In this document: positions 2,747 through 60,812 of the stretch, one piece after another
Numbering within the stretch: position 1 is the stretch's first letter
Layout of the letters: each line of letters opens with the position of its first letter
From: Escherichia phage vB_EcoM_IME392
Length of the DNA stretch: 64,000 nucleotides
Reading direction: 5' to 3' (one strand)
Sequence record: MH719082.1
The notes under the pieces: generated by a model
Told to the model about the DNA's origin: nothing
Seen by the model: only the letters and a program-made list of their open reading frames with translations
Database searches by the model: none
Program-made: the position numbers and the translations under genes

Positions 2747-3705
2747 TTAGTCTTCTCCATATGTTTAAATCCCTGGATCATGTTCTTAGCCACGTTATCC
2801 CAGGTACAATCTTTAACCTTATCAGCAATCTTGGTTCTGTTAAGCTTAGGGAGTATTTCATCCCAGTTTATCTTAGCACCAACTATGTGATGCTCCACAG
2901 ATTCCAGACGATCCTTAGGAATTAGTCCTTCCTTAGTTACTACCAGAGCTCCGCACCGAGCCGCTTCCAGGACAGTAAGACCTAACGACTCTTTATGAGT
3001 AACTATGAAGATGTCGCAGCATCTGATTAATGCAGCGAACTCCTGACTGCTTACTCCTCCCCGACGATACTCCTCAACACTTATATTCTCCTCGTCGATA
3101 ACGCATAATCCATTATCGGTAAGAGTGTAAGATACGTGAGGAACCGGAATATGCTTAAGGTTCATCATCATGGTTAGGGAGTAATCGAAGTCCGACAGAT
3201 CAAATAGAGGATGGTCTACGAATATCCTAAGTATACCATCTGACATTTTCTCTGGGTGGAATAGCTTATCATCAGCTGCCCACCCTACCTGCCAGTTATT
3301 ATCCAGATGTCTTTTCAGACGACTCGGATTGTCTAAGTACTTATAGGTATCATCTCGAAGAGTGAAAGTTACATCTACCTGTTTACAGTCCAGCATCGAA
3401 CCATCATAGATATGGGTAACTAATCCCTTAAAGTTCTTTTTAAGGTACTCACCTATCTCGTGAGGGATCTGGGTGAATGGTCTTACTCCTACGTATAGGA
3501 TATGATCACACTCCTCTTCCCTAGCTATTTCTAATACCTGATCGGCATAAACATGTGGATTAATCGAATCGTGGTATTCTGGCCAGAATACCAACTCTAC
3601 TCCGTTATCCTCCAGAGCGCCTCGGAGATGATATTTCCACATGGTACTGAAGTTGGTTATCTGATGTGAACTACCAGGACAATTCGCTATATACAGTAAC
3701 TTCAT
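2737..3705 (-). CDS. GT-B fold glycosyltransferase (GT4-like)
   Basis: C-terminal ESLGLTVLEAARCGALVV matches the E-x7-E sugar-donor motif region of GT4 enzymes. Confidence 0.6.
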   Translation of the reverse strand: MKLLYIANCPGSSHQITNFSTMWKYHLRGALEDNGVELVFWPEYHDSINPHVYADQVLEIAREEECDHILYVGVRPFTQIPHEIGEYLKKNFKGLVTHIYDGSMLDCKQVDVTFTLRDDTYKYLDNPSRLKRHLDNNWQVGWAADDKLFHPEKMSDGILRIFVDHPLFDLSDFDYSLTMMMNLKHIPVPHVSYTLTDNGLCVIDEENISVEEYRRGGVSSQEFAALIRCCDIFIVTHKESLGLTVLEAARCGALVVTKEGLIPKDRLESVEHHIVGAKINWDEILPKLNRTKIADKVKDCTWDNVAKNMIQGFKHMEKTKCR

Positions 3706-4306
3706 TCACCCATTCCTCAACAGTAGTTTTACGAGTCCCACCAATCCCTGATAAGGACTGAATATTTATCTTCTCTGTAGCCGACTTAATTAAAATAGGA
3801 AGATGGCTAAGGTTATTTGGTACCCCACCAGATATTCTTGGTTCTGGACTACCATCTACCCCAACCAACAAGAGATCAGTGTAACCCATATGATAAGCTA
3901 ATCCGATCGCCCCATAAGCGCTATTCCCAGAACTGATTACATCAGGATCCTCAGATAACCCAGGAACTGCTCTCCATCTCCACAACCACCATAGGGGAGT
4001 GCCGTAGATAGGCTCCTCCCCACGATGTTCGTCCCGCTTAAGTAAGTGTGCTCCATAATCTGAATACAGATGCATATCTGCTTCGTCAACAGCTAGATAA
4101 TAACGAGTACCCATCTTAGGGTTTTGGATACGACATAGATTAGCTTGGCTAGGGTCTAGGGTAAAGAAGTAATTAGCTCTGGGTAGCCACTCTATCGCTC
4201 CGTTAACTGCAAATATCGGTATCTCATGTGGAGGAGTAAATCCTCTTGCCGATGGTCCATCTGCTACAATTATAGCAGGTCTTCTATACTTAGCCTCTCG
4301 AAGCAT
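3671..4306 (-). CDS. MptE/Maf-like (DUF115) or GT42-like transferase, paralog 1
   Basis: ADGPS motif and VGVDGS block resembling the GNGPS / GxDF motifs of sialyltransferase-like and Maf proteins; paralogous to next gene. Confidence 0.4.
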   Translation of the reverse strand: MLREAKYRRPAIIVADGPSARGFTPPHEIPIFAVNGAIEWLPRANYFFTLDPSQANLCRIQNPKMGTRYYLAVDEADMHLYSDYGAHLLKRDEHRGEEPIYGTPLWWLWRWRAVPGLSEDPDVISSGNSAYGAIGLAYHMGYTDLLLVGVDGSPEPRISGGVPNNLSHLPILIKSATEKINIQSLSGIGGTRKTTVEEWVNEVTVYSELSW

Positions 4307-4806
4307 GTTATTTTAGTCCTTCTGGTACAATTGATTACAGCAATACTATCTGGAAGGTATTTCTTGACCAAGTAATAGTCCTCCATCCATTTAGCAACTG
4401 TTTCCAGATCGGGATTAGTTAATTTACCAATATGATCCCCGTGGAAATGGCTGCCCTCAGAGATATCGCAGTCATATCCAAGAAGTACTATCTCTTTAGG
4501 AGCGAATACGCTGGCTAAGAAGATAGCTTGAGCACCTGAGTTATAGCAACTATTCAAGTAGAAGAACTGTTTCACATCTGGATGATTCTCTACCGGAAGA
4601 TGGCTATACTTAGAGCAAGTGCTTGGAATATTATCATAATTATACTCCCACCAGATAGGATCGAATCCATAAACTATGTTGGGAGGTCTGGATGAGAACA
4701 TGGCGTTGTTAGCGCTAATAACCAAGTCGGACTTACTAGCAAGTAGTAAATAATCCTCCTCGGTTAGAGAAGGACCGCTAGCTACACACATTATTCTCTT
4801 TATCAT
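4270..4806 (-). CDS. MptE/Maf-like (DUF115) or GT42-like transferase, paralog 2
   Basis: ASGPSLTEEDY and LLGYDCD...HFHGDH motifs; tandem paralog of 3671-4306. Confidence 0.4.
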   Translation of the reverse strand: MIKRIMCVASGPSLTEEDYLLLASKSDLVISANNAMFSSRPPNIVYGFDPIWWEYNYDNIPSTCSKYSHLPVENHPDVKQFFYLNSCYNSGAQAIFLASVFAPKEIVLLGYDCDISEGSHFHGDHIGKLTNPDLETVAKWMEDYYLVKKYLPDSIAVINCTRRTKITCFERLSIEDLL

Positions 4807-8994: not shown

Positions 8995-9026
8995 CTTTGT
9001 TATTCCTTACGGTTGGATTGACACTT

Positions 9027-9056
9027 TAACAGCCTTTTAGCACCCTAAAAGAGCGG
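9027..9056 (-). promoter_or_regulatory. 31-bp conserved intergenic motif (putative phage-RNAP promoter)
   Basis: Abuts stop of upstream gene; about 33 nt upstream of ligase start at 8994; internal hairpin CTTTTAG-cacc-CTAAAAG. Confidence 0.5.
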
Positions 9057-14813: not shown

Positions 14814-15148
14814 GCAGTCAGGAAGTTACTGGAGATCAGGAAATCATCCAGAGCTACTTCTGTATTCTTAGGAGTATTGTCTAACTCCCATTCACCTACT
14901 CCCAAACGGATCTTAGCCACGCCAGGAGCAATCTCTTCAATAGCTAGCTTAGAGCCACCGATTATCTGGAGGCGAAGAGCATTTACAGCTACTGCATACC
15001 CAGAGAACGCAGTCTCTACCTGGTGACGGAACTCCTGGTCGGAATTAACCTTAGCAGCGTAAGCAGCAGGTTCCATACCCAGTTGCTTAGCATACATCAG
15101 ATGAAACATGTCCAGGTTAATTTTGTTACCAGTAGTCTTCTTAGTCAT
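14804..15148 (-). CDS. hypothetical protein
   Basis: ORF track. Confidence 0.45.
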   Translation of the reverse strand: MTKKTTGNKINLDMFHLMYAKQLGMEPAAYAAKVNSDQEFRHQVETAFSGYAVAVNALRLQIIGGSKLAIEEIAPGVAKIRLGVGEWELDNTPKNTEVALDDFLISSNFLTAAV

Positions 15149-15665
15149 TCTTGATTTCCTCAGCAGTTACGCCAGTGATGTTTAAATACAGATCGGTAGG
15201 TAATTCTGGTAGGGTAGAGACATCCAGATTCTCTACGTCCTTAGCCAGAGTTATGTGAGGAGAGTATTCCGCACTGATCTCAGACGGCACCTCTCCAGAG
15301 GCACGGAGTCGATAGTTAAACGACTGTAGCAGATCGCTATCGAACGCCAGCACCAGGTAGTTAGCATTCTCACCAAAGATCTCATAGCGAGGATTCTTCA
15401 GATGAAGTTTGCTACCCACCAGATCAGCAATAGTTCCCTCATCCGGAGCACCAGTCCCCGGAGCATACATAAGGGTGCAGTGGTTATCGTGACCGGTATC
15501 GAAGTTAAGCTTATCATAATCAGCTACTTCGGAGATAACCTGCTTAAGATTATCTATCCAGGCATCAGAGTCTGGACAGAATTTTACCGAGGAGTAACCC
15601 TCGTCCACGGACTGTACAAGTCCTAACACTACTTCAGCTTTATTCATTTTTATCACCATGGCCAT
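15141..15665 (-). CDS. 2H phosphoesterase superfamily protein (LigT-like)
   Basis: Two H-x-T-x motifs (HCTLMY, HITLAK) with spacing typical of 2H phosphoesterases. Confidence 0.5.
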   Translation of the reverse strand: MAMVIKMNKAEVVLGLVQSVDEGYSSVKFCPDSDAWIDNLKQVISEVADYDKLNFDTGHDNHCTLMYAPGTGAPDEGTIADLVGSKLHLKNPRYEIFGENANYLVLAFDSDLLQSFNYRLRASGEVPSEISAEYSPHITLAKDVENLDVSTLPELPTDLYLNITGVTAEEIKND

Positions 15666-28238: not shown

Positions 28239-28270
28239 TTTAACAGCCTTTTAGGCCGCTAAAAAGGCGG
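28239..28270 (-). promoter_or_regulatory. 31-bp conserved intergenic motif
   Basis: Consensus match immediately upstream of DNA polymerase RBS. Confidence 0.5.
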
Positions 28271-33662: not shown

Positions 33663-33682
33663 TTAAGAATCTTTCCCACATT

Positions 33683-33713
33683 TTAACAGCCTTTCAAGAC
33701 CCTAAAAGAGCGG
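33683..33713 (-). promoter_or_regulatory. 31-bp conserved intergenic motif
   Basis: Consensus match about 20 nt upstream of kinase start at 33662. Confidence 0.5.
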
Positions 33714-35817: not shown

Positions 35818-35850
35818 TTTAACAGCCTTTTAGCTCATCAAAGAAGCGAG
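35818..35850 (-). promoter_or_regulatory. 31-bp conserved intergenic motif (variant)
   Basis: TTAACAGCCTTTTAG...AAAGAAGCGAG; upstream GGCTGT forms hairpin with ACAGCC. Confidence 0.45.
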
Positions 35851-44088: not shown

Positions 44089-44120
44089 TTTAACAGCCTT
44101 TGGAGGCCTCAAAGGAGCGG
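44089..44120 (-). promoter_or_regulatory. 31-bp conserved intergenic motif
   Basis: Upstream of topoisomerase ATPase gene start at 44053. Confidence 0.5.
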
Positions 44121-55323: not shown

Positions 55324-55355
55324 TTTAACAGCCTTTCGACGCTAATTAAAGGTGG
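55324..55355 (-). promoter_or_regulatory. 31-bp conserved intergenic motif (variant)
   Basis: Immediately upstream of start at 55321; overlaps stop of 55346-55657. Confidence 0.45.
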
Positions 55356-55947: not shown

Positions 55948-56254
55948 TGTCTGATTCCCCTTTTATAGTATGATCTTTGAAAACTCTTAAACTATACGGA
56001 TTCTCTATTTCTTCGAACTGTAGACCATCAAAGCCATGTATCATATTCACATAGTTCATACTATACATAGTAATTCTGATTTGCCAGATCGTCGAATTAG
56101 AGGACTTACGAAATACTCTACACGGCTCACTAACTACAGCACCCTTAATCTTCCCAAGTTCCCTGAGAATACCAGTTATGTCCTCGATCTCGCAGAACGA
56201 TTGAAAGATGCGGGATGGACATCGTCTTATGGGACTAACGTCTGAACCATACAT
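55937..56254 (-). CDS. doubtful ORF
   Basis: ORF track only; no convincing RBS at any candidate start. Confidence 0.25.
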   Translation of the reverse strand: MYGSDVSPIRRCPSRIFQSFCEIEDITGILRELGKIKGAVVSEPCRVFRKSSNSTIWQIRITMYSMNYVNMIHGFDGLQFEEIENPYSLRVFKDHTIKGESDNAL

Positions 56255-56310
56255 AATTTTACATAATAGGTAAGTTGGACACAGAAGGACGCAGTCACGC
56301 CTCCACCGTT

Positions 56311-56341
56311 TTAACAGCCTTTTAGGTCATTAAAACGGCGG
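56311..56341 (-). promoter_or_regulatory. 31-bp conserved intergenic motif (variant)
   Basis: TTAACAGCCTTTTAGGTCATTAAAACGGCGG; abuts stop of GT32-like gene. Confidence 0.45.
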
Positions 56342-56348
56342 AGTTCAA

Positions 56349-57140
56349 TCAGTACCGAGGATCAGTATCCTGATAGTCGCGAATTAGGTCATAGACGAGC
56401 ACATCCAGACGAGTAGCATCTTCACGTTTCATGCGGGTAGGTCTGTACATATGGATACATACACAATGCTTAGACCAGACCTTAGCAGTCTGACGCTCCG
56501 TAAGTTCTTTACGGTCGATAATGTACTTCTCGAATGCGTGATAAGAGATAGGCTTTGATACTTCGACATGCTGGCACATATCGAGGAACTGCGGGTAGTC
56601 GTCAGTTAAGAAGCGACTGAATACGTCCTGGTAATAAGAGTAGTTAGGGAATTTACCACCCTGCTCCAGAGATAACGCATGAGTCTCGATCTCCTTCAAC
56701 ATCAGAGCCATAAATTCCTGATTATTGCTGGGAGAGGTCCACATGTTTATCTCGCAGTAATCTAACCGAGGGGAATAAACACGTACCTGAGTCTCGTGAG
56801 GAGTATACGTTTCGTGAGGGCTTCTGATAAAGAGAGTATCAGCATCTACATAGGAGTAACCACGAAGATCCATCATTACCTGAATCTTGAGTCGCAGATA
56901 GTCACATACAGAGGCCATCTTAGCCTTAGTTTTCAGGATATTATACGCCTTCTCCATAATAGGATCTCTGGCGAATAAATCCTGGATCATAACGCAACGG
57001 CAACCTTCGATAATATTCTCTTCGTTATCGATCACCAGTACATGATCATTAGGTCCGTATTTCTGTAAGGACTTAATGCATTCCCGAACATGGATAGGCA
57101 TTTTGGGTCCTACCCAAAGCTGGAAATAATTCTGACTCAT
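56349..57140 (-). CDS. putative DXD-type glycosyltransferase (GT32-like)
   Basis: N-terminal YFQLWVG and CDYLRLKI...GYSYVDADT resembling the GT32 sugar-binding region. Confidence 0.4.
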   Translation of the reverse strand: MSQNYFQLWVGPKMPIHVRECIKSLQKYGPNDHVLVIDNEENIIEGCRCVMIQDLFARDPIMEKAYNILKTKAKMASVCDYLRLKIQVMMDLRGYSYVDADTLFIRSPHETYTPHETQVRVYSPRLDYCEINMWTSPSNNQEFMALMLKEIETHALSLEQGGKFPNYSYYQDVFSRFLTDDYPQFLDMCQHVEVSKPISYHAFEKYIIDRKELTERQTAKVWSKHCVCIHMYRPTRMKREDATRLDVLVYDLIRDYQDTDPRY

Positions 57141-57239
57141 AGTTACCTCTATGTTATTTATTTTAAACTGGATAGGGACTAATAAAGTAAATAGTAATTA
57201 AATACTTATTAATCTTCCTCTTATCTAATGCTAAGGGAA

Positions 57240-57770
57240 GCGTACTCGAGGAGTACAGAAGCTTAGCGAAGAGCGGAGTAACCATTTGATTTAAACAGTC
57301 ACCGTAGAGAGCGAAGGAGTCGCGCCCGCTTGAGGCGGCGCGACCTCCGCTTCACCAATCCTACCGGATGGACGCCTGCGACCACCCGAGCCTACCCCTG
57401 CCTCACTCACTAAAGCCACTTCGGGCTTTACCTCGTTCCGCTACGCGATACGCAGGCAGATAGCTACACTAAGTCCCCTGGAGATGGCTAGTAAGTATCC
57501 GTTACCAGACCATGTCCAACCTAACATTGACGAAGCCAGGGACTAGGCACTCCTCGCCAATAAGCTACATTAGGATTTATGTCCGTATTTCGAAGATAGG
57601 CCGATCGGGGAGACTATGCATTCATCTCTGCTCAACCAGGAAGCACCGATTAGGGTAAATACCCAAACTATCTTCTTAATGTCACTCCTCCCAGACCGCT
57701 TCGGGACTTAGCTTAAGTCTTATCCGAATAATCTGGCATCTACGACGGACCGTAGTGTATGGAGCGTACT
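57240..57770 (-). ncRNA. ORF-free structured region (candidate ncRNA or long structured leader)
   Basis: No ORF of 60 aa or more in any frame; multiple strong hairpins (e.g. GGAGUCGCGCCCGC-loop-GCGGCGCGACCUCC at 57313-57347); lies between a 31-bp motif copy and gene start at 57140. Confidence 0.35.
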
Positions 57771-57774
57771 GCAA

Positions 57775-57805
57775 TTTAACAGCCTTTTGACTCATCAAAA
57801 GAGCG
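57775..57805 (-). promoter_or_regulatory. 31-bp conserved intergenic motif
   Basis: Internal perfect hairpin CTTTTGA-ctca-TCAAAAG; precedes the ORF-free structured region. Confidence 0.5.
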
Positions 57806-57923
57806 TAATTAGGGCCCGATTATTTCACTTAGCTTCCATCCGTTCGGGCCAACACGGATCGTACATGACGTTACCGTCGTTTCAAGTCACTCGGATTATT
57901 AGTTCCCGGTGCTCATATAAAGA

Positions 57924-58002
57924 TGGTGCCACGTAGGGAATCGAACCCTATATCAGGTAAACGTCTAGCCGTAGACTGCTGAGTGCCCTCAGCTACCCTA
58001 TC
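57924..58002 (-). ncRNA. tRNA-like element (canonical T-arm and CACCA 3' end, no canonical anticodon arm)
   Basis: UAGGG-UUCGAUU-CCCUA T-arm followed by ACGUGGCACCA; upstream perfect hairpin GCUGAG-GGCA-CUCAGC; acceptor pairing not found. Confidence 0.3.
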
Positions 58003-58104
58003 ACTTAACCGAACCATCGGCAAATCTTTCACAGATACTTACACGTGATTTTCTCTGATCGGATCTGGTGATTCCTCGGAGTCGAACCGAGGAGTGGCAT
58101 AATA

Positions 58105-58180
58105 TGGTGGTCCATACTGGTTTCGAACCAGTGACCAAGCGATTATGAGTCGCCTGCTCTCACCACTGAGCTAATGGACC
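58105..58180 (-). tRNA. tRNA-Met (anticodon CAU; could be initiator, elongator or lysidine-Ile)
   Basis: Manual cloverleaf: acceptor GGUCCAU/AUGGACC, D-arm GCUC/GAGC, anticodon stem GGCGA/UCGCU with loop CUCAUAA, T-arm ACUGG-UUCGAAA-CCAGU, encoded ACCA. Confidence 0.8.
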
Positions 58181-58649
58181 GAACTAGATTGAGCGATAGG
58201 CTATGGAGTACCTTACCATCGGGCGTCTTTCGCTAAATAGCCCATCATGGGCTACCGCAGGGGCATGACACCTATCGCTCAAATTGGTCGGGATCGTGGC
58301 CCACGTCGGAGGATTTGCCAAACTCCCCATTATCATAGCCTAAGCTATCCAGACGGCCGTAACTACCCTGCTCCGGTACATGCGATAATGGGGACGTATC
58401 CAAAGATGTGGAGATCCCGTTAAAATATCTTAAGCTTCTCGCTATGTGTGTCCTACACTCTACCCTTGCGGGGTACCGGAGGATGAATCCGAACTTCCTG
58501 CGACCACACACGGAGGCCCTTGCAGACGTGCTTTATTGCGCTCATCCTGGCATAGCGAGAACTTAAGATATCTATTGATGCGCACCAGATAAGTATTTCC
58601 CAAGCCATGAACTTAATCTGGGATCTTGACCTATCCAGTGCGACTTATG
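58181..58649 (-). ncRNA. structured inter-tRNA region with long-range helices
   Basis: 12-bp inverted repeat TTGAGCGATAGG / CCTATCGCTCAA (58190-58201 and 58271-58282); 17-bp interrupted repeat 58431-58448 / 58551-58567. Confidence 0.3.
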
Positions 58650-58725
58650 TGGTACTCCCTACTGGATTCGAACCAGTGACCGTCGGTTTAGAAGACCGAT
58701 GCTCTATCCTCTGAGCTAAGGGAGC
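58650..58725 (-). tRNA. tRNA-Arg (anticodon UCU)
   Basis: Manual cloverleaf: acceptor GCUCCCU/AGGGAGU, D-arm GCUC-AGAGGAUA-GAGC, anticodon stem UCGGU/ACCGA with loop CUUCUAA, T-arm ACUGG-UUCGAAU-CCAGU, encoded CCA. Confidence 0.8.
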
Positions 58726-59302
58726 TTAACTTTAGGATGACCTCTTAGCTTACCATCGCGAAAGCTACATGGAGTGTAGTTAACGTGAACTAAGAGGTCA
58801 TCATAAAATCAGTTACTGACGAATTATACTTTCCCAACCATCCACATATACTGCGTTGGCTATGTAAAGAATGCAGAACAAGCCAACGATTAAAGGATTA
58901 ATCATTGTACTTCTCCATTTAATTAAGTTACCTGCTTACTGTTACAGGGACGCCGTTCGTCGCGCCAGATTACCAATTGGCGTATTAAGCCAATCTCGCC
59001 AACCGCGTAACGCCATTGGCTGGTATCACATAGGCTTGTAGCCCTCAGTCAACCTATCCTGAGGATGAAGATCAGATACTCTCTAACGGCGGGATTGATA
59101 GTCCCAGAGTACGATCTCTTTGCCATTCTCGTATGACCTAGGAGACGACTGCCCTGGTTAAGGAGACCAGACAGCTGATATGGTTTAGTTTATTTTTAAT
59201 TTGAGTCCCACTCATACCTTACAGACTCAAGCACTGCAGACCACCATGAAGCCGACTCGTACGCTAACAGTCGACACCACGGATCCATGAAACTCCAACA
59301 AT

Positions 59303-59332
59303 TTAACAGCCTTTCGACTCATCAAAAGAGTG
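59303..59332 (-). promoter_or_regulatory. 31-bp conserved intergenic motif
   Basis: Consensus match at upstream edge of tRNA region. Confidence 0.5.
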
Positions 59333-59485
59333 TTAAATTGTCCGCTCCCTATCACCGAGCACTGTGATGATGGGAAAATAGGGAGCGAAGCGATTCCTAA
59401 GTTTTATCTCTTCTCTAAGTGATTAACCGTTACATACGATGTACCTTCTCGAAAGAATTAAGCCGGTATTGGCACTTCAGACACT

Positions 59486-59516
59486 TTAACAGCCTTTCGA
59501 CCGTACAAAAGAGCGG
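59486..59516 (-). promoter_or_regulatory. 31-bp conserved intergenic motif
   Basis: Exact 31-mer identical to copy at 61173-61203. Confidence 0.5.
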
Positions 59517-59521
59517 CGTAA

Positions 59522-60064
59522 TTAGACGCTCGCCTCAGGCACTTTAACAGCCTTTGGACGTGTAAAAAGAGCGGGATTATACCATTCTGGGGTACGATAG
59601 AAAGAGATCTTACGACCCTCTTTCTTCCAGAAGTAGAATTTATCGTTGAGGTAGTTACGGTACTTCTCGTAGACTGTCTCACCAGGAGCACCTGATACAC
59701 ATGCATACGGAGTCATATCGGTCTCTGGACCTACTACCAGATTTTTAGGTAGTGCCACAAGACGGGATAAAATTTCTTCGGTTGCATGGAGCCGTCCGGT
59801 ACGTTCAAAGAATAGCATGCATAAATAGCTTGCCAAGTCACGAACGAAGTTGTAGTTACCTGACGATTCACGAACCCACTTAGCACACGGATGATTAACA
59901 TGCGTCTGCTTATAAATACCCTCGATAGCGTTTTCGCCATCCAGAACATGATGAGCAGTAGATAATAACTGAGCACACTCAATAATCATTTTATTCTGGT
60001 GCATAGGCATACAGTGGTCCATAGCACATTCTAACGCATCTTCGTGAGTACGGAAAATATTCAC
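59522..60064 (-). CDS. hypothetical protein (C-terminal 23 codons coincide with a copy of the 31-bp motif)
   Basis: ORF track; GTG start with AGGAG RBS. Confidence 0.45.
   Translation of the reverse strand: MNIFRTHEDALECAMDHCMPMHQNKMIIECAQLLSTAHHVLDGENAIEGIYKQTHVNHPCAKWVRESSGNYNFVRDLASYLCMLFFERTGRLHATEEILSRLVALPKNLVVGPETDMTPYACVSGAPGETVYEKYRNYLNDKFYFWKKEGRKISFYRTPEWYNPALFTRPKAVKVPEASV
59544..59574 (-). promoter_or_regulatory. 31-bp conserved motif copy inside annotated CDS 3' end
   Basis: Tandem with copy at 59486; encodes last 23 codons of ORF 59522-60064. Confidence 0.4.
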
Positions 60065-60148
60065 AATAATTACTCCTAACGTGGTTGCTTACTTTAAGTC
60101 TCTCGTGAAAGATTTAGAGTAAGCATCGGAGGAATTACCTCCGACACT

Positions 60149-60179
60149 TTAACAGCCTTTCGACGGCACAAAAGAGCGG
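60149..60179 (-). promoter_or_regulatory. 31-bp conserved intergenic motif
   Basis: About 85 nt upstream of start at 60064. Confidence 0.5.
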
Positions 60180-60181
60180 TT

Positions 60182-60343
60182 TTAAATTTTACATGCATCT
60201 CCGCAGTCGTCGTCACCAGGCTGGCTGATAACTTCGTCTACGTTAACCATGCGATCTTCTACACGACGAGATGCCTCGTCTAATTCTTCCTGAGATGGGA
60301 GATTGGAGAAATCCAATTCTTCACCAGATTTATTGCCTGACAT
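60182..60343 (-). CDS. small acidic protein (53 aa)
   Basis: Internal ATG at 60343 with GGAG RBS. Confidence 0.35.
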   Translation of the reverse strand: MSGNKSGEELDFSNLPSQEELDEASRRVEDRMVNVDEVISQPGDDDCGDACKI

Positions 60344-60812
60344 AATCACTCCACACGTTAATAACTTCTTTACCACAGGATTTAGCATAGGCTACACAGT
60401 TACCTGTGCCACCCGAACTACCATCCCATAGGGCTAATCCCATCTGACTACGGTTAACCATGTATCGGTTACGCACCATCATCTTGAAGGAATCATACCC
60501 AGGCTCGGACACTATAATTGTGCGACGACTTTTTCTGCATAGCTCAGTCCATTTTTCTGTATCTGCAGATCGCCACATTTTGGGTTGGTCAATCATAGGG
60601 ATTGTTGCAAAGTATGGTATTCCGAGATTGGCACATGCCTGAGCACATGCCATATCCCATCCTAACGCCATACCTATAAACCAGCAGTCCACGCTATTCT
60701 TAGCTGTAAGCTCCTGGATGTGATGTTCGGCAAACTGGGTAAGATGATCATGGCTAAAGTTATCCCATCCACCCAGCTTATCTGGCCTATGACCAGTCAC
60801 GAACATAAACAT
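60330..60812 (-). CDS. YpsA/DUF1273-like (SLOG superfamily) nucleotide-binding protein
   Basis: FVTGHRP N-terminal block and IGMALGWDMACAQAC resemble YpsA LAITGYKP ... ISGQLGVELWAAEAA. Confidence 0.45.
   Translation of the reverse strand: MFMFVTGHRPDKLGGWDNFSHDHLTQFAEHHIQELTAKNSVDCWFIGMALGWDMACAQACANLGIPYFATIPMIDQPKMWRSADTEKWTELCRKSRRTIIVSEPGYDSFKMMVRNRYMVNRSQMGLALWDGSSGGTGNCVAYAKSCGKEVINVWSDYVRQ

What the first reader, a model, noticed from the sequence alone, without database searches (positions are those of the whole stretch)
57924..58104. tRNA 3'-half-like minihelices ending in CACCA without a full cloverleaf
At 57924-58002 a canonical T-arm (UAGGG-UUCGAUU-CCCUA) is followed by ACGUGGCACCA, but I could not pair an acceptor stem or find a 7-nt anticodon loop; upstream is a perfect 6-bp hairpin with a 4-nt loop. 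Immediately 3' of tRNA-Met, at 58071-58092, a second T-arm-like hairpin (CCUCGG-UUCGACU-CCGAGG) is followed by AAUCACCA. These resemble degenerate tRNAs or tRNA-like processing or priming elements.
Basis: seen in the sequence. Interest (0 to 1): 0.45.

Follow-up and report, generated by a model that had tools for sequence, protein, structure and literature searches.

The report
Phage tRNA-like RNA with two T-arms
The two "orphan" tRNA T-arms most likely belong to one unannotated 175-base tRNA-like RNA gene that sits right after tRNA-Met in a rare E. coli phage, cannot decode codons, and resembles the still unexplained small stable RNAs of phage T4.

Summary
On the minus strand, two hairpins with perfect T-loops and two CACCA motifs lie just downstream of tRNA-Met, and no tool finds a normal tRNA there. 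The reading as two separate minihelices is probably wrong. The 5 nt before the first hairpin (GCCAC, 58094-58098) pair perfectly with the 5 nt after the second T-arm (GUGGC, 57928-57932), followed by A-CCA. This closes a single 175-nt, five-helix, cloverleaf-like unit (57924-58098).

Related phage genomes carry this whole unit, or lack it exactly from CCA to CCA, or carry a different 189-nt acceptor/T-arm/CCA RNA at the same site. Acinetobacter Saclayvirus phages have the same layout right after tRNA-Ile, with compensatory base changes and the same A/G polymorphism before CCA. They do not have the internal CACCA.

Best reading (about 0.5): an accessory, non-decoding tRNA-like RNA, co-transcribed with tRNA-Arg and tRNA-Met and matured by the tRNA-processing enzymes. 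Its tRNA "top half" serves as a processing and stability chassis or as a mimic. Main rival (about 0.25): decayed tRNA remnants. The closest known analogues are T4 RNAC and RNAD, whose function is unknown. There are no expression data, and the window type itself shows no covariation.

The parts
57924..58098 (-). The whole tRNA-like unit, 175 nt (176 nt if U58099 is counted). It forms a five-way junction in the order P1, H1, P3, P4, T2, P1', then A-CCA.
   Evidence: The MFE and centroid folds close the unit with P1, z = -2.7. Pair probabilities are given. The unit is 98.3% identical to EP_H11, while the flanks are 80.3% and 76.6% identical. It is a cassette present or absent as a whole in relatives.
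58099..58104 (-). AU-rich spacer UAUUAU between the CCA of tRNA-Met and the unit. U58099 can pair with A57927.
   Evidence: Read from the sequence. The U0-A172 pair has probability 0.73-0.81. TAC1 has an equivalent spacer, AAUAA.
58094..58098 (-). P1 5' strand, GCCAC (acceptor-like stem).
   Evidence: Pairs with 57928-57932 at five Watson-Crick pairs out of five, p >= 0.99.
58073..58093 (-). H1: a T-arm-like hairpin, UCCUCGG-UUCGACU-CCGAGGA, in the position a D-arm would occupy.
   Evidence: p >= 0.9. The equivalent hairpin in TAC1-type RNAs shows a compensatory G-C to A-U change.
58066..58070 (-). Internal CACCA after H1. It overlaps the P3 5' strand and is probably not a 3' end.
   Evidence: It is not conserved in the TAC1 or L059 architectures. 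In the fold, its first three bases (CAC, 58070-58068) lie in P3; the last two (CA, 58067-58066) are unpaired.
58000..58072 (-). P3 arm: AUCAC (58072-58068) pairs with GUGAU (58004-58000) and encloses a 63-nt domain whose fold is uncertain.
   Evidence: only the closing helix survives in the centroid; p = 0.57-0.66. Two of the five variable sites lie in this arm.
57955..57998 (-). P4 arm: GGGUA/UACCU closes two hairpins, GCUGAG-GGCA-CUCAGC (57993-57978) and GUCUA-CGGC-UAGAC (57976-57963).
   Evidence: p = 0.59-0.69. The CGGC loop is CGG in EP_H11, so it cannot be an anticodon loop.
57934..57950 (-). T2: canonical T-arm UAGGG-UUCGAUU-CCCUA.
   Evidence: Loop position 60 is U or C among relatives.
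57924..57933 (-). 3' end: C (bulge or mismatch), then GUGGC (P1 3' strand, 57932-57928), then A (57927; G in three relatives), then CCA (57926-57924).
   Evidence: The purine-CCA is kept. Homology with the relatives that lack the unit resumes immediately after this CCA.
58105..58180 (-). tRNA-Met (CAU) immediately upstream. Included as context and as a probable co-transcript.
   Evidence: ARAGORN; Rfam 70.3 bits.
57775..57801 (-). Hairpin CUUUUGA-UGAG-UCAAAAG plus the motif AAGGCTGTTAAA, about 120 nt downstream. This is the likely end of the tRNA transcription unit and the start of the next one.
   Evidence: The motif occurs about 22 times on the minus strand upstream of genes, against 4.5 expected. 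That it is a promoter or terminator is an inference.

Best explanation
Positions 57924-58098 (minus strand) are one gene for a roughly 175-nt, non-decoding, tRNA-like RNA.

Architecture:
- Its ends form an acceptor-like helix (GCCAC/GUGGC, possibly extended by a U-A pair).
- That helix sits next to a canonical T-arm and ends in an encoded purine-CCA. Together these reproduce the 'top half' of a tRNA.
- The D-arm position is taken by a second T-arm-like hairpin.
- The anticodon-arm and variable-arm positions are taken by two larger arms, P3 and P4, which have no 7-nt anticodon loop.

Inferred mechanism:
- The RNA is transcribed from the phage's own promoter together with tRNA-Arg and tRNA-Met.
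- RNase P cuts the 5' side, in the AU-rich spacer 6 nt after the tRNA-Met CCA.
- Exonucleases trim the 3' side back to the encoded RCCA, as for E. coli tRNAs.
- The tRNA-like chassis gives precise excision and stability.
- The RNA then acts in trans, either as a mimic of the tRNA top half (a competitor or decoy for a tRNA-binding factor) or as a natural 'tRNA scaffold' carrying P3/P4 as its payload.
- It is an accessory cassette, not an essential gene.

Shown here: the sequence features, the thermodynamic fold, the cassette behaviour, the conservation, and the recurrence of the architecture in another phage group with compensatory changes.

Inferred only: transcription, processing, stability and the trans function.
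For: 1. No tRNA or tmRNA model fits.

2. The P1 closing helix is five Watson-Crick pairs out of five. It lies 0-1 nt from H1 on one side and 1 nt from T2 on the other, and is followed by A-CCA. Pair probability is at least 0.99 alone, with flanks, and with tRNA-Met attached. ARAGORN's alternative acceptor has probability 0.0. The fold has z = -2.7.

3. Cassette behaviour:
- The window, EP_H11, L011, L012 and L014 carry the unit.
- L008, L009 and L015 go from the tRNA-Met CACCA straight to tctttatatg.
- L021 carries, at the same site, a different 189-nt RNA: GUUCCC...UGGAGG-UUCGACU-CCUUCA-GGGAAC-A-CCA.

4. The unit is 98.3% identical to EP_H11, whereas tRNA-Met is 80.3% and the next 137 nt are 76.6% identical. 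Four of the five variable sites are unpaired, one is a 1-nt indel in a hairpin loop, and the base before CCA varies only A/G.

5. It is not protein-coding: the EP_H11 indel frameshifts the only overlapping 39-aa ORF.

6. The same layout occurs in Acinetobacter Saclayvirus TAC1: tRNA, 5-nt AU spacer, 5-nt strand, 7-8-bp T-arm-like hairpin, two arms, T-arm, complementary strand, CCA.
- It is present in 18 phage records at 96-100% identity and is unannotated there.
- It is absent from relative HB01.
- All 315 pair cells are paired, with two compensatory pairs (H1 G-C to A-U; P4 A-U/G-U/G-C) and the same A/G change before CCA.

7. A third instance, L059, has a 10-bp closing helix.

8. A covariance model built from the TAC1 type ranks this element first in 56000-60500, full length, at 21.6 bits, against 14.6 and 11.4 bits for the two true tRNAs.

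9. T4 encodes stable RNAs of the same general kind in its tRNA cluster, and they are expressed (PMC3014915, PMC9697503).
Against: - There are no transcript, end-mapping or stability data.
- Within the window type the copies are at least 97.7% identical, so the element's own helices show no covariation at all.
- The acceptor-plus-T stack is 11 layers (12 with U-A, but then there is no unpaired discriminator) instead of the canonical 12 plus N73. Efficient RNase P or CCA-enzyme recognition is therefore not guaranteed.
- The unit is dispensable in natural relatives.
- The high identity could reflect recent cassette exchange rather than purifying selection.
- The type-2 RNA in L021 folds no better than shuffles, z = 0.0.
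- The covariance-model cross-hit is weak evidence. Hits of 20-28 bits in other loci are mostly artefacts made of the T-arm of one tRNA plus the next class II tRNA.
- Orphan T-arm fragments right after tRNA genes are common in phage contigs, so H1 might be such a scar.
- No antisense target of 13 nt or more exists in the window, and no partner protein was identified.
Confidence: 0.5

Rival explanations
1. Decay products. H1 is an orphan 5'-truncated tRNA fragment, and the 3' 79 nt is a degenerate tRNA pseudogene. Both were left by recombination within a fast-turning-over phage tRNA cluster and have no function of their own. The GCCAC/GUGGC pairing is what remains of the ancestral acceptor stem, or is fortuitous.
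For: - At a lowered threshold, ARAGORN sees a cloverleaf-like layout in 58003-57925, with shrunken loops.
- T-arm hairpins within 22 nt after a tRNA CCA are common in IMG/VR (119 unique cases). Of these, 39 are followed by 7 nt + N + CCA with no 5' partner, and some duplicate the preceding tRNA's 3' strand.
- The unit is missing in L008, L009 and L015 with no other visible change in the aligned flanks.
- The tRNA region is highly mosaic.
Against: - The unit is an island of 98.3% identity between flanks of 80% and 77%.
- Its substitutions avoid helices.
- P1 is perfect and positioned exactly at the junction.
- The same composite architecture is kept in 18 Saclayvirus genomes, with compensatory changes in H1 and P4.
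- A purine is retained before CCA in both groups.
Confidence: 0.25
2. A cis-acting punctuation or stabiliser element. The tRNA-like fold recruits RNase P and 3' processing enzymes to define the 3' end of the tRNA-Arg/tRNA-Met transcript, or to protect it. It may also release the 5' end of the long conserved non-coding RNA downstream (57141-57923). This would resemble plant mitochondrial t-elements or MALAT1-mascRNA. The excised RNA itself would be a by-product.
For: - The element is the last structured unit before a hairpin-plus-promoter motif at 57801-57775.
- No intrinsic terminator is found in 57000-59700.
- The surrounding 2.4 kb is non-coding, conserved and structured.
- t-elements are known to set mRNA ends (PMC1920247, title and abstract seen).
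Against: - A 35-nt minihelix or a plain tRNA would be enough for that job. It does not explain 175 nt with a second T-arm and two large arms.
- Relatives without the unit keep the same downstream RNA directly after tRNA-Met, which already supplies a processing site.
- L021 replaces the unit with a different large RNA rather than losing it.
Confidence: 0.12
3. One reading: two separate tRNA 3'-half-like minihelices, each matured to its own CCA end (at 58066 and at 57924).
For: - Both hairpins have consensus T-loops and are followed by CACCA.
- Minus-strand CACCA is rare here.
- Fragments of the form T-arm + 7 nt + N + CCA do exist after tRNAs in other phages.
Against: - H1's flanks do not form an acceptor stem, and only 4 nt plus A separate its 6-bp stem from CCA, against the canonical 7 + N.
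- T2's partner strand lies 5' of H1.
- The internal CACCA is partly sequestered in P3 (its CAC pairs; the terminal CA is unpaired) and is absent in TAC1 and L059.
- No relative carries one hairpin without the other.
Confidence: 0.08
4. A reduced tmRNA-like or otherwise aminoacylatable RNA that enters the ribosome or donates an amino acid.
For: - It has an acceptor helix, a T-arm and a CCA around a large insert, as tmRNA does.
- GGUUCGAC lies at the same distance from the 5' strand as the GGAUUCGAC of the tmRNA D-loop (a comparison from memory of the E. coli and B. subtilis ssrA sequences).
Against: - ARAGORN's tmRNA search finds nothing, even at 70% threshold, and there is no Rfam tmRNA hit at E<=10.
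- The 3:70 pair is C-G, not G-U.
- There is no tag-like reading frame.
- The discriminator varies A/G among near-identical copies.
- The acceptor/T stack is one layer short.
Confidence: 0.03

Closest known systems
Bacteriophage T4 species 1 and species 2 RNAs (RNAC/rnaC, 139 nt; RNAD/rnaD, 119 nt)
   Same: - Both are small non-coding RNAs encoded inside the phage tRNA cluster, directly downstream of a tRNA (tRNA-Arg UCU in T4) and on the same strand.
- rnaC ends with a canonical T-arm, CCGGG-UUCGAAU-CCCGG, followed by a 7-nt strand that partly pairs with the 5' end.
- rnaD has a 5'-proximal hairpin with a 7-nt loop and runs into CACCA.
- They are larger than a tRNA and have no anticodon arm.
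- Their function is unknown (PMC3014915; expression confirmed in PMC9697503).
   Different: - There is no detectable sequence similarity: blastn of the element against 50,697 phage records, T4 included, finds only EP_H11.
- T4 rnaC has no second T-arm at the D-arm position and does not encode CCA.
- In T4 the two features (5' hairpin, 3' T-arm) belong to two separate RNAs. Here they are closed into one unit by P1.
Unannotated element after tRNA-Ile in Acinetobacter Saclayvirus phages (TAC1, phiAbaA1, Aci01-1 and others)
   Same: - The order of parts and the junction spacing are identical: tRNA CCA, 5-6-nt AU spacer, 5-nt strand, 7-8-bp hairpin with a UUCGAYU loop, two long arms, T-arm, complementary 5-nt strand, CCA.
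- The T-loop-to-T-loop distance from the preceding tRNA is 41 nt in both.
- Both show an A/G polymorphism just before CCA.
- Both are optional among close relatives.
- The fold z-scores are similar, -2.5 against -2.7.
   Different: - It is 152 nt rather than 175 nt, and there is no sequence similarity outside the T-loops.
- It has no internal CACCA and no bulged C before the 3' strand.
- It follows tRNA-Ile, not tRNA-Met.
- Homology, as opposed to convergence, is not established: the covariance-model cross-hit of 21.6 bits lies within the range of artefactual hits.
Class II (long-variable-arm) tRNA cloverleaf
   Same: Five helices radiate from one junction in the same order (acceptor, first arm, second arm, extra arm, T-arm). 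It has a consensus T-loop and an encoded NCCA, is embedded in a tRNA operon, and lies on the same strand as the tRNAs.
   Different: - The acceptor helix is 5-6 bp rather than 7.
- There is a T-arm where the D-arm should be.
- There is no 7-nt anticodon loop anywhere at the expected position.
- It is 175 nt long.
- It is rejected by ARAGORN and by Rfam RF00005.
tRNA-like processing modules (plant mitochondrial t-elements, MALAT1 mascRNA, gammaherpesvirus TMER tRNA-like RNAs) and engineered tRNA scaffolds
   Same: An acceptor/T-arm module lets tRNA-processing enzymes excise and stabilise a non-tRNA payload, and the products carry CCA but do not decode (established knowledge; the abstract of PMC1920247 on t-elements was seen). 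The 'chassis plus variable payload' idea fits the type-1 and type-2 alleles.
   Different: - Those are eukaryotic, organellar or artificial, whereas this one is in a tailed phage of E. coli.
- The Rfam mascRNA model scores 13.1 bits against a 42.5 cut-off.
- None of those has two T-arms.
tmRNA tRNA-like domain
   Same: An acceptor helix, a T-arm and a CCA flank a large insert, and a UUCGAC motif lies shortly after the 5' strand.
   Different: There is no G3-U70 pair, no tag ORF and no predicted pseudoknots, and ARAGORN and Rfam do not detect it.

Membership tests
Canonical tRNA (Rfam RF00005 / ARAGORN) | Cloverleaf scoring above the family threshold | tested here: not met
   There is no hit at gathering score or at E<=10. 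ARAGORN finds nothing at default settings or with introns up to 200 nt. The tRNAscan-SE-annotated KissB record calls nothing over the analogous TAC1-type element.
Canonical tRNA (Rfam RF00005 / ARAGORN) | Anticodon arm with a 7-nt loop | tested here: not met
   The candidate hairpins have 4-nt loops (GGCA; CGGC, which is CGG in EP_H11).
Canonical tRNA (Rfam RF00005 / ARAGORN) | 7-bp acceptor stem, unpaired N73, then CCA | tested here: not met
   There are five Watson-Crick pairs plus A-CCA. Alternatively there are six pairs plus a U.C mismatch (7 layers), with no unpaired discriminator.
Canonical tRNA (Rfam RF00005 / ARAGORN) | T-arm with a UUCRANY loop | tested here: met
   UAGGG-UUCGAUU-CCCUA, and a second copy CCUCGG-UUCGACU-CCGAGG.
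tmRNA | Detection by ARAGORN or the Rfam tmRNA models; a G3-U70 pair; a tag reading frame | tested here: not met
   (ARAGORN -m at 70% threshold finds 0 genes). The 3:70 pair is C-G. There is no tag-like ORF.
T4 RNAC/RNAD-type phage stable RNAs | Encoded within the phage tRNA cluster, downstream of a tRNA, on the same strand | tested here: met
   It starts 6 nt after tRNA-Met, on the minus strand like all the genes. The T4 layout is shown.
T4 RNAC/RNAD-type phage stable RNAs | tRNA-like 3' end (T-arm plus acceptor-like strand) on an RNA larger than a tRNA and without an anticodon arm | tested here: met
   for the window; for T4.
T4 RNAC/RNAD-type phage stable RNAs | Sequence homology to T4 rnaC or rnaD | tested here: not met
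   blastn in distant mode at E<=1 against the phage collection, which includes T4, returns only EP_H11.
T4 RNAC/RNAD-type phage stable RNAs | Accumulates as a discrete stable RNA during infection | not testable with these tools
   No expression data are available. For T4 this is shown by Northern blot and RNA-seq (PMC9697503).
tRNA minihelix / tRNA 3' half | Acceptor stem formed by the sequences immediately flanking one T-arm, giving about 12 stacked pairs, then NCCA | tested here: not met
   H1's flanks pair at 4 of 7 positions, not contiguously, and its CCA comes 2 nt early. T2's partner strand lies 170 nt upstream.
Double-T-arm tRNA-like RNA (provisional class: window type, Saclayvirus TAC1 type, L059) | Closing helix whose 5' strand abuts a T-arm-like hairpin and whose 3' strand abuts a second T-arm, followed by (N)CCA; not called as a tRNA | tested here: met
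   only these three types qualify among 119 candidate loci. The TAC1-type covariance model hits the element at full length.
Double-T-arm tRNA-like RNA (provisional class: window type, Saclayvirus TAC1 type, L059) | Common descent, or covariation across the types | tested here: inconclusive
   Compensatory changes are seen only within the TAC1 type. The covariance-model score of 21.6 bits overlaps that of artefactual hits. The window-type copies are too similar to one another.
YrlA / bacterial Y RNA tRNA-like module | Rfam model match and an associated Ro (TROVE) or RtcB gene | tested here: not met
   There is no Rfam hit at E<=10. No TROVE or RtcB family was found among the window proteins scanned. 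Only 64 kb of the roughly 112-kb genome was examined.

The most novel reading that the evidence does not exclude
The element, the Saclayvirus TAC1-type RNA and L059 may define a previously unrecognised class of phage RNAs. They would be CCA-terminated 'double-T-loop' tRNA mimics of 90-175 nt, in which a second T-arm replaces the D-arm.

The two UCGA-containing T-loops could pair with each other to build a tRNA-like elbow. This is my own speculation and is untested.

Such an RNA would present a complete tRNA top half (acceptor, CCA, elbow) without an anticodon. It would be carried as an exchangeable accessory cassette that titrates or diverts a host factor recognising that half. Candidates are a defence toxin that modifies or cleaves tRNA 3' ends or T-loops, or RNase P, the CCA-adding enzyme or EF-Tu.
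Probability: 0.15. Interest if true: 0.7.

Novelty: new variant of a known kind. Interest (0 to 1): 0.45.

Why it matters
Phage tRNA clusters are annotated with tRNA finders, which miss RNAs like this one. It is unannotated in EP_H11 and in 18 Saclayvirus records.

T4's RNAC and RNAD have remained without a function for about fifty years. A second and a third phage lineage carry large tRNA-like RNAs with a CCA end in the same genomic niche. They behave as exchangeable cassettes, and natural genomes exist both with and without them. That supplies natural cassette-plus/cassette-minus comparators, which T4 never offered.

If the RNA is a tRNA top-half mimic, it would bear on how phages deal with tRNA-directed host defences and on how tRNA-processing enzymes are exploited. 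If it is only a decayed tRNA, it is still a warning that half-tRNA scars are frequent next to phage tRNA genes.

Tried and rejected
- **Standard or intron-containing tRNA:** ARAGORN and Rfam are negative. Only junk calls appear at lowered thresholds.
- **tmRNA:** rejected (see the membership test).
- **Protein-coding:** rejected. The 39-aa ORF at 57913-58032 is frameshifted in EP_H11.
- **Host origin:** there is no match in 5,426 E. coli genomes.
- **Wider homologues by sequence:**
  - Nothing in the 50,697 phage records except EP_H11.
  - Nothing in IMG/VR.
  - Nothing in the JGI metagenomes for one 28-mer.
- **Homologues by synteny:**
  - The downstream 263-aa protein exists only in this lineage.
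  - Contigs of the 79%- and 53%-identity helicase relatives do not reach the tRNA region.
  - IME392 could not be fetched.
  - In YerA41 and Carin-5, no tRNA gene is annotated in the ~8-10 kb fetched upstream of the helicase.
- **Antisense target in the window:** only one 12-mer, which is the chance level.
- **Covariance model from the TAC1 type to enlarge the family:** the 20-28-bit hits in IMG/VR loci proved to be the T-arm of one tRNA plus the following class II tRNA. They were discarded, and the cross-hit to the window was down-weighted.
- **Nested or split tRNA for the orphan T-arm fragments:** no consistent upstream 5' strand was found. Some fragments duplicate the preceding tRNA's 3' strand.
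- **tRNA-related enzymes encoded nearby:** only a weak RNA-ligase-like match (phrog_755, 15141-15665). No CCA-adding enzyme, RtcB or Ro was found in the window.
Full report
**Setting**

The window is a stretch of a tailed-phage genome with almost all genes on the minus strand.
- It is 95% identical to Escherichia phage EP_H11, which is 111 kb.
- It belongs with vB_EcoM_IME392 and a few assembly contigs.
- The literature places these phages in the 'RP13-like' group with hypermodified thymidine (PMC12686479).
- The window encodes pieces of a multisubunit RNA polymerase, among other things.
- Between the ORFs ending at 59522 and starting at 57140 lies a 2.4-kb stretch with no ORF of 100 aa or more.
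- Nothing longer than 82 aa overlaps that stretch, and it has no intrinsic terminator.
- It holds tRNA-Arg(UCU) at 58650-58725 and tRNA-Met(CAU) at 58105-58180, both on the minus strand.

**Checking the observation**

Read on the minus strand, the sequence after tRNA-Met is:

CCA-UAUUAU-GCCAC-U-CCUCGG-UUCGACU-CCGAGG-A-AUCACCAG...(63-nt domain)...GUGAU-A-GGGUA-GCUGAG-GGCA-CUCAGC-A-GUCUA-CGGC-UAGAC-GUU-UACCU-GAUA-UAGGG-UUCGAUU-CCCUA-C-GUGGC-A-CCA-UCUUUAUAUG.

- No tool finds a normal tRNA or tmRNA there. ARAGORN is negative at default settings and with introns. Rfam is negative at gathering score and at E<=10, even when given only these 205 nt.
- With ARAGORN's threshold lowered to 80%, it proposes 'tRNA-???' for 58003-57925, with a two-base 'anticodon' and an acceptor stem carrying two mismatches and a wobble. 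The 3' 79 nt is cloverleaf-like but degenerate.
- Four good T-arm hairpins cluster in 750 nt here, against three looser ones, all in ORFs, in the remaining 63 kb.
- Minus-strand CACCA is rare and occurs three times within 186 nt here.

**One unit, not two**

The fold:
- The 5 nt before the first hairpin (GCCAC, 58098-58094) are the exact complement of the 5 nt after the second T-arm (GUGGC, 57932-57928).
- The minimum-free-energy and centroid folds of the 175 nt both close the molecule with this helix, P1 (z = -2.7).
- The P1 pairs have probability of at least 0.99 for the element alone, with flanks, and with tRNA-Met attached.
- The alternative acceptor proposed by the relaxed ARAGORN run has probability 0.0.
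- The result is a five-way junction in the order P1, H1 (the T-arm-like hairpin), P3 (AUCAC/GUGAU plus a 63-nt domain), P4 (GGGUA/UACCU enclosing the two small hairpins), T2 (the true T-arm), P1', then A-CCA.
- This is the topology of a class II tRNA. It differs in having a T-arm where the D-arm should be and no anticodon loop.

The comparative evidence agrees:
- The unit is present in the window, EP_H11, L011, L012 and L014.
- In L008, L009 and L015 the tRNA-Met CACCA is followed directly by tctttatatg. In the window that sequence follows the second CACCA. The whole unit is therefore missing, exactly from CCA to CCA.
- In L021, a more distant relative whose neighbouring DenV-like protein is 86% identical, the same site holds a different 189-nt RNA.
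- That RNA starts 4 nt after the tRNA-Met CCA with GUUCCC. It ends with UGGAGG-UUCGACU-CCUUCA-GGGAAC-A-CCA, a canonical 12-layer acceptor/T stack. It has no 5' T-arm-like hairpin.
- No genome carries one of the two hairpins without the other.

**Conservation**

- Against EP_H11 the unit is 98.3% identical, while tRNA-Met is 80.3% and the next 137 nt are 76.6% identical.
- Among the four distinct copies there are five variable sites. Four are unpaired in the fold: a junction A/C, a 1-nt indel in the CGGC loop, T-loop position 60, and the base before CCA, which is A or G.
- The fifth variable site lies in the poorly determined P3 interior.
- The loop indel frameshifts the only overlapping ORF, so the region is not protein-coding.
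- The copies are too similar to give covariation for this element itself. The high identity could reflect selection or recent cassette exchange.

**The same architecture elsewhere**

- A scan for T-arm hairpins in the fetched loci showed an equivalent arrangement in Acinetobacter phage TAC1 (Saclayvirus).
- Right after tRNA-Ile it reads CCA-AAUAA-UCUCC-[CGAUUGGG-UUCGAUU-CCCGAUCG]-two arms-[GAAGG-UUCGAAU-CCUUU]-GGAGA-CCA.
- The distance from the tRNA's T-loop to the hairpin's T-loop is the same 41 nt.
- It folds into the same five-way junction, z = -2.5.
- It occurs in 18 Saclayvirus records at 96-100% identity, and no RNA feature is annotated over it in any of them.
- One of those records was annotated with tRNAscan-SE, which calls nothing there.
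- It is absent from the relative HB01.
- Seven distinct copies keep 100% of 315 pair cells. They show two compensatory pairs, G-C to A-U in H1 and A-U/G-U/G-C in P4.
- One copy changes the base before CCA from A to G, the same polymorphism as in the window type. Slid-partner controls give no double changes.
- Two pattern scans of IMG/VR looked for a T-arm hairpin within 22 nt after a tRNA CCA. They gave 119 unique cases with a stem of at least 5 bp.
- Only three types combine that hairpin with a downstream non-tRNA T-arm, a closing helix and CCA. They are the window type, the TAC1 type and one uncultivated phage, L059, which has a 10-bp closing helix and is 92 nt long.
- Neither TAC1 nor L059 has a CCA after the first hairpin, so the window's internal CACCA is most likely incidental.

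**Cautions**

- A covariance model built from the TAC1 type ranks the window element first in 56000-60500, at full length, with 21.6 bits against 14.6 and 11.4 for the two real tRNAs.
- Equally high or higher hits in other loci turned out to be the T-arm of one tRNA plus the next class II tRNA.
- The cross-hit therefore shows a shared layout, not homology.
- One third of the IMG/VR hairpins (39 of 119) are followed by 7 nt + N + CCA without a 5' partner. Some of them copy the preceding tRNA's 3' strand.
- Truncated tRNA 3' fragments next to phage tRNA genes are therefore common, and H1 may have started as one.
- The type-2 RNA of L021 folds no better than shuffles.

**How it most likely works**

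- The motif AAGGCTGTTAAA, preceded by a conserved hairpin, occurs about 22 times on the minus strand just upstream of genes, against 4.5 expected.
- Copies lie at 59543, 59485 and 59302 upstream of the RNA-rich stretch, and at 57775 about 120 nt downstream of the unit.
- I infer a phage-promoter-driven transcript that carries a leader RNA, tRNA-Arg, a structured spacer RNA, tRNA-Met and the tRNA-like unit.
- The acceptor/T-arm module with an encoded purine-CCA is the substrate class of RNase P and of 3' trimming in E. coli. This rests on established knowledge of the RCCA-RNase P RNA interaction and of encoded CCA in E. coli tRNA genes.
- The retained A/G before CCA in two phage groups fits that requirement. 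It equally fits a U-A/U-G closing pair with U58099.
- The excised RNA cannot decode. It presents a tRNA top half, and it differs between alleles in the rest of the molecule.
- I therefore favour a trans-acting tRNA top-half mimic, or a natural tRNA scaffold carrying P3/P4. It would be held as an accessory cassette.
- No target or partner was identified. There is no antisense match of 13 nt or more in the window, and no tRNA-related enzyme lies nearby apart from a weak RNA-ligase-like hit.

**Comparison with what is known**

- The nearest described things are T4 RNAC and RNAD.
- They are stable RNAs of 139 and 119 nt that lie directly after tRNA-Arg in the T4 tRNA cluster.
- RNAC ends in a canonical T-arm plus an acceptor-like strand. 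RNAD starts with a hairpin with a 7-nt loop and runs into CACCA.
- They are expressed late in infection and have no known function (PMC3014915; PMC9697503).
- The present element shares the niche and the tRNA-like end. It shares no sequence with them, and it uniquely joins two T-arms in one closed cloverleaf.
- It is not a tRNA, a tmRNA, a minihelix or a YrlA-type RNA by the tests listed under membership.

**Verdict**

- The best reading is one accessory gene for a 175-nt non-decoding tRNA-like RNA, at confidence about 0.5.
- The rivals are decayed tRNA remnants (0.25), a cis-acting processing element (0.12), two separate minihelices (0.08) and a tmRNA-like RNA (0.03).
- It is a new variant of a known but unexplained kind of phage RNA. 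Interest is moderate. It would rise sharply if expression were shown, or if a phenotype separated the natural cassette-plus and cassette-minus phages.

Noticed in passing
window, minus strand: 2083-2094, 9025-9036, 28239-28250, 33682-33693, 35818-35829, 44089-44100, 55324-55335, 56310-56321, 57775-57786, 59302-59313, 59485-59496, 59543-59554, 60148-60159 and near-copies: The motif AAGGCTGTTAAA has 30 matches at up to 2 mismatches, against 4.5 expected. Almost all are on the coding strand, 20-40 nt upstream of start codons. In the RNA-rich region each copy is preceded by a conserved hairpin, CUCUUUUG-loop-CGAAAGG. It is probably the promoter, or a terminator-promoter module, of the phage's own multisubunit RNA polymerase.
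   Followed up: partly
window 58191-58280 (-), within the shared spacer RNA 58181-58424; L021:1855-1945: This is a 90-nt domain between tRNA-Arg and tRNA-Met, closed by GAGCGAUAGG/CCUAUCGCUC. In L021 the helix is GGAUAACAAG/CUUGUUAUCC, so 6 of 10 pairs are changed on both sides, around a conserved core (GUCAUGCC, UGCGG, UUUAGC, AAAGAC, GGUAAGGUACUCCA). It has no Rfam match. It looks like a real structured RNA of unknown kind.
   Followed up: partly
window 58425-58571 (-): A long hairpin of about 147 nt (arms AUAUCUUAAGUUCUCGCUAUG / CAUAGCGAGAAGCUUAAGAUAU) is inserted after tRNA-Arg in the window, L011 and L014. It is absent in EP_H11, L008 and L021. It is another optional RNA cassette.
   Followed up: no
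window 57141-57923 (-): About 780 nt of conserved non-coding sequence lies between the tRNA-like unit and the next gene. Parts are 98% identical to EP_H11, and it contains GC-rich long-range pairings such as GGAGGUCGCGCCGCC...GGCGGGCGCGACUCC. No ORF longer than 42 aa lies on the coding (minus) strand; the longest ORF on either strand is 49 aa, and there is no Rfam hit.
   Followed up: no
window 58813-58905 (-); L021:1396-1496: A 30-aa hydrophobic ORF (MINPLIVGLFCILYIANAVYVDGWESIIRQ) with a GGAG ribosome-binding site lies inside the 'non-coding' stretch. It is conserved with conservative substitutions in the 86%-relative L021. It is likely a real small membrane protein gene.
   Followed up: partly
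L001 (EP_H11) 3677-3765: This is a tRNA-like sequence with a normal acceptor stem, D-arm and T-arm but an insertion of about 21 nt in the anticodon arm. ARAGORN does not call it, and it is absent from the window. It may be another degenerate or expanded tRNA in this lineage.
   Followed up: no
IMG/VR loci L022-L199: T-arm hairpins lying within 22 nt downstream of a tRNA's CCA are frequent in phage contigs. In 39 of them CCA sits exactly 7 nt + N after the stem (about 2 expected by chance), with no adjacent 5' acceptor strand. In several, the 7 nt repeat the preceding tRNA's 3' strand. These are 5'-truncated tRNA copies or partial duplications.
   Followed up: partly
L017 (TAC1) 4685-4763: The record annotates a tRNA-Asn directly after the TAC1-type element. 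ARAGORN does not call it, and its D-arm region is unusual.
   Followed up: no
L027 2027-2458: An uncultivated 226-kb phage contig, picked up by the pattern scan, encodes a tmRNA with the tag VANDNEPEALRFAA. It also has a T-arm hairpin after tRNA-Met followed by a D-arm-like segment.
   Followed up: no
window 15141-15665 (-): A 174-aa protein gives a weak match to PHROG 755, 'RNA ligase' (E = 4e-10). It is the only RNA-repair-like gene seen in the window.
   Followed up: no
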